This document shows, piece after piece, positions 30,467 to 31,180 of a stretch of 64,000 nucleotides of DNA (its first letter is position 1; each line of letters opens with the position of its first letter). Both the position numbers and the translations under genes were made by a program. Below the pieces are notes generated by a model. It did not search any database. It was not told where the DNA came from and saw only the letters and a program-made list of their open reading frames with translations. Origin of the DNA: a virus (lineage: Duplodnaviria; Heunggongvirae; Uroviricota; Caudoviricetes); IMG/VR virus record IMGVR_UViG_2718218305_000006. One strand, written 5' to 3'.

Positions 30467-31180
30467 ATGGCTGTTGTCTGTTCAGTTATCATGGTTTGCT
30501 CCCCAATTAATATTTTTCTTGAAAAGGATACGTTGTCACTTAAGCCAGGCTCAGTCGTTCTGGCCACCAAATGCATCAGGGAGCTTTTCCTTATGCATTA
30601 TGGCAAAGTTAAAATTGTCGATATAAGCGAATCCGTCGTAAGTCAATATCTGGAAAGTCAGCATAAGCTGACGAGGACTCGTCTGACTGACATTCCGCTT
30701 TACCTGTTGCTGGAACCCAACAATCCTGCGTTGGCTGCGGCTTTAATTACCAGCCAGGGATTTTCCGGAGAGGTCACGGATATGTTTCTTATGATGGCCT
30801 GCCTGTCTCTGTTTGAAACAGATGAACGGATGTCATTGTTTTTAAGTGGATGTTTATCCAGCATAAGTGCCAAAGTCAGGGCGATAATTCAGACAGATAT
30901 ATCAGCAAGCTGGACGCTTGGTGCGATTGCTCTACAGTTGCATATGAGTGAGAGTTTGTTAAAGACAAAACTGAAAAATGAAGGGGGCATGTTCAGTCGC
31001 TTGTTGCTGGAAGAGCGGATGCGTGTTGCTGTAAATATGTTATGTTCCCGGTATGGATATGGACAGGCTGTAGCAGAAAAATGTGGTTATTCAAGCCGGT
31101 CCTACTTTATTTCTGTATTTCACCGCTATTATGGCTTCCCGCCAGACAGATATGTATCCAGGCAAGGGCTTGATTATTGA
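30467..31180 (+). CDS. AraC-family transcriptional regulator
   Basis: 237 aa; C-terminal AraC HTH signature (..SWTLGAIALQLHMSESLLKTKLK.. and ..YSSRSYFISVFHRYYGFPP..); AT-rich promoter-like upstream region. Confidence 0.75.
   Translation: MAVVCSVIMVCSPINIFLEKDTLSLKPGSVVLATKCIRELFLMHYGKVKIVDISESVVSQYLESQHKLTRTRLTDIPLYLLLEPNNPALAAALITSQGFSGEVTDMFLMMACLSLFETDERMSLFLSGCLSSISAKVRAIIQTDISASWTLGAIALQLHMSESLLKTKLKNEGGMFSRLLLEERMRVAVNMLCSRYGYGQAVAEKCGYSSRSYFISVFHRYYGFPPDRYVSRQGLDY

What the first reader, a model, noticed from the sequence alone, without database searches (positions are those of the whole stretch)
30467..31180. Prophage-encoded AraC-family regulator between Q and the tRNA genes
A 237-aa AraC-type regulator with its own AT-rich promoter-like region sits in the late region. 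Prophage-borne AraC regulators in EHEC are known to modulate host virulence and acid-resistance regulons, so this is a candidate cross-talk regulator.
Basis: partly seen in the sequence, partly recalled or inferred. Interest (0 to 1): 0.45.

Follow-up and report, generated by a model that had tools for sequence, protein, structure and literature searches.

The report
Known EHEC prophage regulator PsrB
The gene is real and is the already characterised PsrB (z2104/ECs2191), an AraC-type regulator on an E. coli O157:H7 prophage that switches on the host's acid-resistance genes and thereby damps type III secretion, so the finding is correct but not new.

Summary
The ORF at 30467..31180 (+) exists and encodes a 237-aa AraC/XylS-family protein (Pfam HTH_AraC 2.9e-13, HTH_18). 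It lies between the Q antiterminator and tRNA-Ile(CAU)/tRNA-Arg(UCU). Window 20001-45000 is 100% identical to prophage Sp11 of E. coli O157:H7 Sakai, where the gene is ECs_2191. The same protein sits in the right-hand prophage of O-island 57 in EDL933. The published Z2104 primer pair matches window 30727-30884 exactly, so the gene is z2104 = psrB. PsrB is an experimentally studied regulator. According to reviews of Tree 2011 and Yang 2015, it binds the gadE and hdeA promoters, raises acid resistance and indirectly represses LEE type III secretion. It is 91% identical to PsrA (Sakai Sp4 ECs_1087), 38% to the probable PatE and 30% to YdeO. The conserved N-terminus supports the 237-aa start over Sakai's 195-aa annotation. 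The "own promoter" claim is only weakly supported: there is one 10/12 sigma-70 match in a 29% GC stretch, which is no more than chance gives. The position, after a strong terminator downstream of Q, suggests Q-dependent read-through as a second route of expression, but this is inferred.

The parts
30467..31180 (+). psrB (z2104 / ECs_2191), a 237-aa AraC/XylS-family regulator. The N-terminal domain spans roughly residues 1-125 and the C-terminal double helix-turn-helix DNA-binding domain roughly 130-232.
   Evidence: ORF; Pfam HTH_AraC and HTH_18; 100% identical to Sakai Sp11; protein WP_000301797.1 in EDL933 OI-57; Z2104 primers match 30727-30884 exactly; modelled DNA-binding domain superposes on the GadX domain 3mkl with TM 0.88, rmsd 1.3 A, 42% identity.
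30404..30431 (+). Predicted sigma-70-like promoter (ATGATA-16-TATAAT), 36 nt upstream of the start codon, in a 29% GC stretch.
   Evidence: Consensus scan scores 10/12, but the site count is not above shuffles. GC content. The sequence is identical upstream of psrA in Sakai Sp4. Function has not been shown.
29343..29909 (+). Late-gene antiterminator Q (ECs_2193, z2102).
   Evidence: Pfam DUF1133 at 3.7e-105 and Phage_antitermQ at 5.9e-08; annotated 'phage antiterminator' in Sakai; the Z2102 primer matches at 29525.
29982..30010 (+). Strong intrinsic-terminator hairpin with a U-run, starting 73 nt after the Q stop codon. It is the likely tR' of the late operon. psrB lies downstream of it.
   Evidence: RNA fold of 29960-30020 gives -19.1 kcal/mol, z = -4.3, with 0 of 200 shuffles as stable. 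The identification as tR' is an inference from lambdoid gene order, and no pR' was located by the consensus scan.
30134..30331 (+). 65-aa ORF (ECs_2192) between Q and psrB, possibly a small winged-helix protein.
   Evidence: Annotated CDS in Sakai and EDL933. Weak TrmB hit at E 0.0021, below the Pfam cutoff. The orthologous position is annotated 'TrmB family' in the Stx2k phage and in EDL933 CP-933M.
31209..31284 (+). tRNA with anticodon CAT (ileZ-type tRNA-Ile2), 28 nt after the psrB stop codon.
   Evidence: ARAGORN; Rfam tRNA at 72.5 bits; annotated ileZ5 in Sakai.
31385..31461 (+). tRNA-Arg (UCU, argO), followed by a terminator-like hairpin at 31474-31493.
   Evidence: ARAGORN; Rfam; terminator scan; annotated argO5 in Sakai.
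37897..38211 (+). pchB (ECs_2182), a PerC-family activator of the LEE, on the same prophage. This is the psr-pch association reported for the family.
   Evidence: Pfam PerC at 5.4e-44; annotated pchB in Sakai; the association is stated in review PMC10877973.
60040..62181 (+). Three NleG-family type III effector genes at the end of the same prophage. This is the effector-locus association reported for the family.
   Evidence: Pfam T3SS_NleG at 2.6e-46, 2.8e-47 and 1.3e-43. OI-57 carries nleG2-3, nleG6-2 and nleG5-2.

Best explanation
The ORF is psrB, the AraC/XylS-family 'prophage-encoded secretion regulator B' of the defective lambdoid prophage Sp11 (the right-hand prophage of O-island 57) of E. 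coli O157:H7. Its C-terminal double helix-turn-helix domain is closest to GadX and YdeO. According to the published work as summarised in reviews, the protein binds the host gadE and hdeA promoters. It activates the glutamate-dependent acid-resistance regulon (gadE, yhiF, hdeAB, and gadBC via GadE). [quoted passage not shown] The gene is a 'moron' in the Q-to-lysis slot, the slot that holds stx in Stx phages. It probably has its own weak sigma-70 promoter (predicted). Because it lies downstream of Q and of a strong terminator, it can probably also be read through from the late promoter when Q is made (inferred). What is shown here: gene identity, domain content, position and family relations. 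What is taken from the literature: the targets and phenotypes. What is inferred: the two routes of transcription.
For: The ORF and its AraC domain are confirmed. NCBIfam ranks YdeO (106 bits, residues 1-229) and GadX (87 bits) as the nearest curated families. The window is 100% identical to Sakai Sp11, where the gene is ECs_2191. The identical protein WP_000301797.1 is at EDL933 1905274-1905987 in OI-57. The other prophage of OI-57 has a DNA methyltransferase in that slot. The published Z2104 amplicon primers match 30727-30884 exactly, and the Z2102 and Z2108 primers flank it in Q and in the esterase gene. The protein is 91% identical to Sakai ECs_1087, named psrA in PMC13502914. That agrees with the reported 90% PsrA/PsrB identity. 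pchB and three nleG genes are on the same prophage, as reported for psr genes. Function comes from reviews PMC10877973, PMC8565820 and PMC10057817. dN/dS against psrA is 0.43 overall and 0.27 in the DNA-binding domain, consistent with a protein under selection. The gene is present in 725 of 5426 complete E. coli genomes, 588 of them at 99% identity or more. The terminator after Q is supported by folding. A 92% homologue sits between Q and tRNAs-stx2kAB in phage phiSTEC1575-Stx2k.
Against: The primary papers (Tree et al. 2011; Yang et al. 2015) are not held in the library, so the functional statements rest on reviews. The reviews state that deleting psrB had little effect on secretion, with effects seen when it was supplied in trans or induced, so the native expression level and natural trigger are unclear. 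The promoter prediction is no better than chance expectation, and no pR' promoter was found by consensus between Q and the terminator. Sp11 is defective, with integrase and exonuclease pseudogenes, so Q-driven expression may rarely occur.
Confidence: 0.93

Rival explanations
1. The gene is a silent or decaying passenger of a defective prophage. It is kept intact by recent descent and gives regulatory effects only when artificially overexpressed.
For: Sp11 has pseudogenised integrase and exonuclease genes. Reviews report little effect of a psrB deletion on secretion. The start codon has no clear Shine-Dalgarno sequence. The promoter match is no better than chance. The gene is AT-rich (43.8% GC against 52.8% for the window), which is typical of H-NS-silenced DNA.
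Against: The ORF is intact and at least 99% identical in 588 complete genomes of several serotypes, including O157, O103, O111 and O121. dN/dS against psrA is 0.43, and 0.27 in the DNA-binding domain. A 92% homologue is carried by a complete Stx2k phage genome. The reviews report that induced PsrB improved survival through the acidic mouse stomach.
Confidence: 0.15
2. The protein's primary targets are phage genes, for example the late or lysis genes or the adjacent tRNAs, and the host gad effects are secondary.
For: The gene sits inside the late transcription unit, next to Q and next to a second small putative DNA-binding ORF. More distant homologues (about 38%) occupy the same Q-to-holin slot in lambda-like phages.
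Against: The slot is variable. In sister prophages it holds a DNA methyltransferase, a CPBP protease or nothing, so it is not needed for the phage cycle. The nearest curated relatives are the host acid-resistance regulators YdeO and GadX. The reviews report direct binding to host gadE and hdeA promoters.
Confidence: 0.05

Closest known systems
PsrB (z2104, ECs2191) of E. coli O157:H7
   Same: It is the same gene. The DNA is 100% identical to Sakai Sp11, the RefSeq protein is the same as in EDL933 OI-57, and the published Z2104 primers match exactly.
   Different: The sequence does not differ. Only the annotated start differs: 195 aa in the Sakai record against 237 aa in PGAP, and conservation of the N-terminus supports 237 aa.
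PsrA (Sakai Sp4 ECs_1087; reported as z1789)
   Same: It is 91% identical and has the same 237-aa length. It occupies the same slot (Q, small TrmB-like ORF, psr, tRNAs) and has a nearly identical upstream region and a pch gene nearby.
   Different: There are 22 amino-acid differences, 17 of them in the N-terminal domain. The reviews say the psrA deletion raises secretion while the psrB deletion does not. The PsrA prophage has three tRNAs and a CPBP protease gene.
PatE (z0321), probably Sakai Sp1 ECs_0287
   Same: It is a prophage-borne AraC-like activator of gadE and hdeAB. The reviews say it acts on the same hdeA promoter segment, -132 to -45. It shares the MxxxCSxI N-terminus.
   Different: It is only 38% identical and 247 aa long. 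It lies at the end of a different, highly degraded prophage rather than in a Q-tRNA slot. The ECs_0287 = PatE equation is inferred from position and was not verified.
YdeO and GadX (chromosomal AraC/XylS regulators of the acid fitness island)
   Same: These are the best curated-family matches, and YdeO aligns over the full length. The modelled DNA-binding domain matches the GadX crystal structure at TM 0.88 and 42% identity. They share the same target regulon.
   Different: PsrB is 30% identical to YdeO and scores far below the equivalog cutoffs (106 against 348 bits; 87 against 500 bits). It is carried on a prophage, not in the core genome.
Rns, CsvR and ToxT (virulence AraC regulators with a fatty-acid-binding N-terminal domain)
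   Same: These are the best full-length matches among solved structures, by sequence (E 5e-16 for the C-terminal half) and by fold search (E about 1e-10 over about 245 columns).
   Different: The global TM-score is only about 0.41. The N-terminal half of the model has low confidence, with pLDDT 44-74. No sequence similarity is detectable in the N-terminal domain, and nothing is known or shown about ligand binding.

Membership tests
AraC/XylS transcription factor family | C-terminal DNA-binding region of about 100 aa with two helix-turn-helix motifs (Pfam HTH_AraC / HTH_18). | tested here: met
   PF00165 at 2.9e-13 (50 bits, cutoff 26.6) in two stretches; PF12833 at 37.8 bits (cutoff 33.6) over residues 155-230.
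AraC/XylS transcription factor family | The DNA-binding domain adopts the MarA/GadX seven-helix fold. | tested here: met
   In the AlphaFold model, residues 130-232 have pLDDT 83-95. The domain superposes on GadX 3mkl with TM 0.88-0.89 and rmsd 1.3-1.5 A, and on MarA 1bl0 with TM 0.70. This is a prediction, not a solved structure.
Psr family (PsrA/PsrB prophage-encoded secretion regulators) | Sequence identity with the published z2104 gene. | tested here: met
   The Z2104 primer pair and its 158-bp amplicon match window 30727-30884 exactly. The Z2102 and Z2108 primers flank it in the expected genes. It is the only AraC gene in EDL933 OI-57.
Psr family (PsrA/PsrB prophage-encoded secretion regulators) | About 90% identity between the two O157 paralogues. 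| tested here: met
   91% identity to Sakai ECs_1087 (psrA), both 237 aa. O157 genomes carry two copies.
Psr family (PsrA/PsrB prophage-encoded secretion regulators) | Carried on prophages together with pch regulators and type III effector loci. | tested here: met
   The gene is in prophage Sp11. pchB is at 37897-38211 and three nleG genes are at 60040-62181.
Psr family (PsrA/PsrB prophage-encoded secretion regulators) | Activates gadE and yhiF, binds the gadE and hdeA promoters, and represses LEE secretion. | not testable with these tools
   This is reported in reviews of Tree 2011 and Yang 2015. The primary papers are not held.
YdeO (NCBIfam NF007407 equivalog) | Score above the curated equivalog cutoff of 348 bits. 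| tested here: not met
   106.1 bits; 30% identity to K-12 YdeO. It is a relative, not an orthologue.
GadX (NCBIfam NF007432 equivalog) | Score above the curated equivalog cutoff of 500 bits. | tested here: not met
   87.3 bits, covering the C-terminal half only.
Rns/ToxT-type ligand-gated AraC regulators | N-terminal beta-rich domain with a fatty-acid-binding pocket. | tested here: inconclusive
   Fold search aligns the full length to Rns, CsvR and ToxT (E 1e-10 to 1e-6), but TM is about 0.4. N-terminal pLDDT is 44-74. Pocket residues could not be assessed.

The most novel reading that the evidence does not exclude
psrB, and psr genes in general, lie in the same Q-controlled late transcript slot as stx. 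In phage phiSTEC1575-Stx2k a 92% homologue sits directly upstream of the tRNAs and stx2kAB. One reading is therefore that prophage induction or Q activity, rather than the gene's weak own promoter, is the natural trigger. On that reading, a subpopulation undergoing SOS or late-gene expression would switch on acid resistance and shut down type III secretion. A second unexcluded reading is that the faster-diverging N-terminal domain senses a gut fatty acid, as in Rns and ToxT. Neither reading was tested here, and either may already be addressed in the primary papers, which I could not read.
Probability: 0.2. Interest if true: 0.35.

Novelty: already known. Interest (0 to 1): 0.1.

Why it matters
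PsrB is part of the known wiring by which EHEC prophages plug into the host's acid-resistance (GAD) regulon. Through GadE, that wiring also sets the level of LEE type III secretion, and both traits are relevant to passage through the stomach and to ruminant colonisation. Re-identifying it in this window adds nothing new biologically. It also supports the 237-aa start over the 195-aa start in the Sakai reference annotation. Finally, it documents the gene's place in the Q-to-lysis cargo slot shared with stx.

Tried and rejected
- **Primary papers.** I tried to read Yang 2015 (PMC4288888), Bender 2012 (PMC3416394) and Tree 2011 (by DOI and as PMC7099609). None is held, so the functional statements come from reviews.
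- **Original EDL933 record.** I tried to fetch NC_002655 for Z locus tags, but it is not in the collection. I solved this with the resequenced EDL933 and the published Z2104 primers.
- **PsrA in OI-50.** I looked for PsrA in the potB/potC prophage (OI-50) of resequenced EDL933. There is no AraC gene there. The second copy is in the prophage next to yccA.
- **Exact-sequence cluster look-up and full homologue search.** Neither gave informative names, only 'helix-turn-helix domain-containing protein'.
- **Late promoter pR'.** The consensus scan found none between Q and the terminator. It also missed the terminator, which RNA folding does support.
- **Rfam scan.** It found no RNA family within the gene or its leader.
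- **HnrS sRNA.** I considered whether HnrS from the 2026 paper lies next to psrB. It is reported on Sp9, Sp10 and Sp12, not on Sp11.
- **YdeO or GadX orthology.** I considered and rejected it, because the scores are far below the curated cutoffs.
- **Internal start at M43.** I considered it because an AGGGAG sequence lies 9 nt upstream of that ATG. I rejected it as the main start because the first 42 residues are conserved in distant homologues.

Full report
**Observation**

The window has an ATG-initiated ORF at 30467..31180 on the + strand, encoding 237 aa. Its product matches the AraC helix-turn-helix models. PF00165 scores E 2.9e-13 (50 bits, cutoff 26.6) in two stretches, and PF12833 scores 37.8 bits over residues 155-230.

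Upstream lies a Q-type antiterminator at 29343-29909, matching DUF1133 at 3.7e-105 and Phage_antitermQ at 5.9e-08. A 65-aa ORF follows at 30134-30331. Downstream are two tRNA genes at 31209-31284 (anticodon CAT) and 31385-31461 (Arg, TCT). RefSeq and the Sakai record annotate the first as tRNA-Ile (ileZ). The description 'between Q and the tRNA genes' is correct.

**Identity**

Window 20001-45000 is 100% identical over 25 kb to E. coli O157:H7 Sakai, NC_002695.2 2176112-2201111, which is lambdoid prophage Sp11. In that record the gene is ECs_2191, 'phage regulatory protein'.

The identical RefSeq protein (WP_000301797.1) is annotated in the resequenced EDL933 at 1905274-1905987. That is inside the right-hand prophage of the region corresponding to O-island 57. 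The left-hand prophage of OI-57, the one with paa/adfO, has a DNA methyltransferase in the same slot and no AraC gene. Reviews assign PsrB to z2104 on OI-57.

Direct proof comes from a typing paper that lists a Z2104 primer pair designed on AE005174 1892470-1892627, giving a 158-bp amplicon. Both primers match the window exactly, at 30727-30884, which is also 158 bp and lies inside the ORF. The Z2102 primer falls in Q at 29525, with the same 1202-bp spacing as in AE005174. The Z2108 primer falls in the downstream esterase gene. The psrA copy has a mismatch in the forward primer site. The gene is therefore psrB.

**Family relations**

The full-length ORF at Sakai Sp4 is annotated ECs_1087, and a 2026 paper calls it psrA. 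It is 91% identical to the window protein. This matches the 90% PsrA/PsrB identity given in the reviews.

- A 92% homologue is carried by phage phiSTEC1575-Stx2k.
- Identity is 38% to Sakai Sp1 ECs_0287. This is the probable PatE, judged by position and not verified.
- Identity is 40% to a protein in lambda-like phages and 30% to K-12 YdeO.

All of these share the N-terminus M-x-x-x-C-S-x-I, and the YdeO profile aligns from residue 1. The 237-aa start is therefore better supported than the 195-aa start (M43) of the original Sakai annotation. This holds even though M43 has the better Shine-Dalgarno sequence.

NCBIfam ranks YdeO (106 bits, cutoff 348) and GadX (87 bits, cutoff 500) first. PsrB is thus a relative of the acid-fitness-island regulators but not an orthologue of either. 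A full database search found close homologues almost only in E. coli and Shigella. Identities run from 100% down to about 57%, then drop to 39%.

In 5426 complete E. coli genomes the gene family is present in 725. Of these, 588 carry a copy at 99% identity or more. The median is two copies per genome, with a maximum of four.

**Anatomy and structure**

An AlphaFold model built from a 14-sequence alignment has mean pLDDT 72.9. The C-terminal domain (about residues 130-232) is confident, with pLDDT 83-95. It superposes on the GadX DNA-binding domain (3mkl) with TM 0.88, rmsd 1.3 A and 42% identity.

The N-terminal half is predicted as a beta-rich domain followed by helices, but with pLDDT of only 44-74. 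Full-length fold matches go to Rns, CsvR and ToxT (E 1e-10 to 1e-6), with a global TM of about 0.4. The Rns/ToxT-like two-domain plan is therefore plausible, but the ligand pocket cannot be judged.

Against psrA the gene has 42 nucleotide differences. dN/dS is 0.43 overall, 0.55 in the N-terminal domain and 0.27 in the DNA-binding domain. The flanking DNA is almost identical between the two copies: 131 of 137 positions upstream and 101 of 104 downstream. This pattern fits a functional protein whose sensor or dimerisation half evolves faster.

**Expression signals**

The gene is AT-rich, at 43.8% GC against 52.8% for the window. The last 75 nt before the start codon are 29% GC.

One sigma-70-like site, ATGATA-16-TATAAT at 30404-30431, scores 10/12. 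However, the 2.4-kb region holds no more such sites (3) than shuffled sequence does (2.9 +/- 1.9). The 'own promoter' is therefore plausible but not demonstrated.

Starting 73 nt after the Q stop codon there is a strong hairpin with a U-run at 29982-30010. It folds at -19.1 kcal/mol, with z = -4.3. By analogy with lambdoid phages I read this as the late terminator tR'. psrB would then lie in the Q-antiterminated late transcript, in the same cargo slot as stx. This step is an inference, and the scan did not find a consensus pR' promoter.

The slot is variable among sister prophages:
- a CPBP protease plus psrA plus three tRNAs in Sp4 / CP-933M;
- a DNA methyltransferase plus two tRNAs in the left OI-57 prophage;
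- nothing but a TerB pseudogene in the potBC prophage;
- psr plus three tRNAs plus stx2kAB in the Stx2k phage.

**Mechanism**

The published work is available to me only through reviews. According to them, PsrB binds the hdeA promoter (-132 to -45) and the gadE promoter. It raises expression of gadE, yhiF, hdeAB and the GadE-dependent AR2 genes. It increases survival at pH 2.5-3.5 and in passage through the mouse stomach when induced. It represses type III secretion indirectly through GadE and YhiF.

Deleting psrB alone had little effect on secretion, unlike deleting psrA. The same prophage in this window carries pchB (PerC family, 5.4e-44) and three nleG effector genes. This is the association reported for psr genes.

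My best explanation is therefore the published one, at high confidence for identity. Confidence is lower for how and when the chromosomal copy is expressed.

**Rivals**

One rival is that the gene is an effectively silent passenger whose effects appear only on overexpression. This is supported by the deletion phenotype, the weak translation and promoter signals, and the defective state of Sp11. Conservation and purifying selection argue against it.

The other rival is that its true targets are phage genes. This is unlikely, because the slot is dispensable and the reported binding sites are on the host chromosome.

**Novelty and score**

This is an already known, experimentally characterised gene. 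There is nothing here that would surprise a specialist.

The most novel reading left open is that expression is coupled to Q and prophage induction, as for stx, or that the N-terminal domain is gated by a fatty acid. I put this at about 0.2 probability, with moderate interest if true. Interest is 0.1.

Noticed in passing
window 30467-30592; Sakai ECs_2191 and ECs_1087 (L003 22593-23180, L002 18804-19391): The Sakai reference annotation starts both psr genes at Met43 (195 aa). The first 42 codons are conserved down to 30% identity homologues (YdeO, the probable PatE, a lambda-like phage protein), so the reference start looks 126 nt too short.
   Followed up: yes
L006 (EDL933 NZ_CP008957 1628000-1677000) and L011 21009-21722: Reviews place PsrA (z1789) on OI-50, the potB/potC prophage CP-933N. 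In the resequenced EDL933 that prophage has no AraC gene between Q and the esterase gene. The second psr copy lies instead in the prophage next to yccA (the Sakai Sp4 equivalent). This agrees with a 2026 paper that calls ECs1087 (Sp4) psrA. The original assembly or the O-island assignment may be wrong.
   Followed up: partly
L007 (phage phiSTEC1575-Stx2k OQ243220.1) 2985-7324: A complete Stx2k-converting phage carries a 92% PsrB homologue in the order Q, TrmB-like ORF, psr, three tRNAs, stx2kA, stx2kB. A GAD/LEE regulator and a Shiga toxin therefore share one late-region cargo slot.
   Followed up: partly
window 29982-30010: A strong terminator hairpin with a U-run (-19.1 kcal/mol, z -4.3) starts 73 nt after the Q stop codon. 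If a late promoter overlaps the end of Q, the terminated transcript would be roughly 70 nt long, similar in size to the phage sRNAs StxS and HnrS. The consensus terminator scan missed it.
   Followed up: partly
window 30134-30331: A 65-aa ORF (ECs_2192) sits between Q and psrB and has a weak TrmB winged-helix match (E 0.0021, below the cutoff). The same ORF precedes psr in the Stx2k phage and is frameshifted in EDL933 CP-933M. It travels with psr, and its function is unknown.
   Followed up: partly
window 30365-30372: There is a run of eight G about 30 nt upstream of the predicted -35 element of psrB. It is the main difference from the psrA upstream region, which reads GGGTGTTAG there. Whether its length varies between strains was not examined.
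   Followed up: no
window 30467-31461: psrB uses the rare codons ATA (17 per 1000) and AGA+AGG (21 per 1000) at about twice the rate of the long ORFs in the window. The tRNA-Ile(CAU) and tRNA-Arg(UCU) genes that read ATA and AGA start 28 nt after its stop codon. A promoter-like site at 31170-31198 overlaps the 3' end of psrB.
   Followed up: partly
window 32231-32403 (+): There is an Rfam match to the sRNA family STnc100 (104.7 bits, gathering score 47), just upstream of the 616-aa DUF1737/SASA/DUF6645 esterase gene at 32540-34390.
   Followed up: no
window 31631-32062 and 32059-32226: A TerB-family protein (143 aa, Pfam 3.7e-14) and a small DUF3927 ORF lie between the tRNAs and the esterase gene, at the position stx occupies in Stx phages. 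The TerB gene is a pseudogene in EDL933 CP-933N.
   Followed up: no
window 1-11000 versus 11000-62800: By the Sakai coordinates, the window spans the junction of two tandem prophages. It covers the end of Sp12 (tail fibre genes, nleG pseudogenes, and ISEc8 and IS629 copies) and then essentially all of Sp11, whose integrase and exonuclease genes are pseudogenes.
   Followed up: partly
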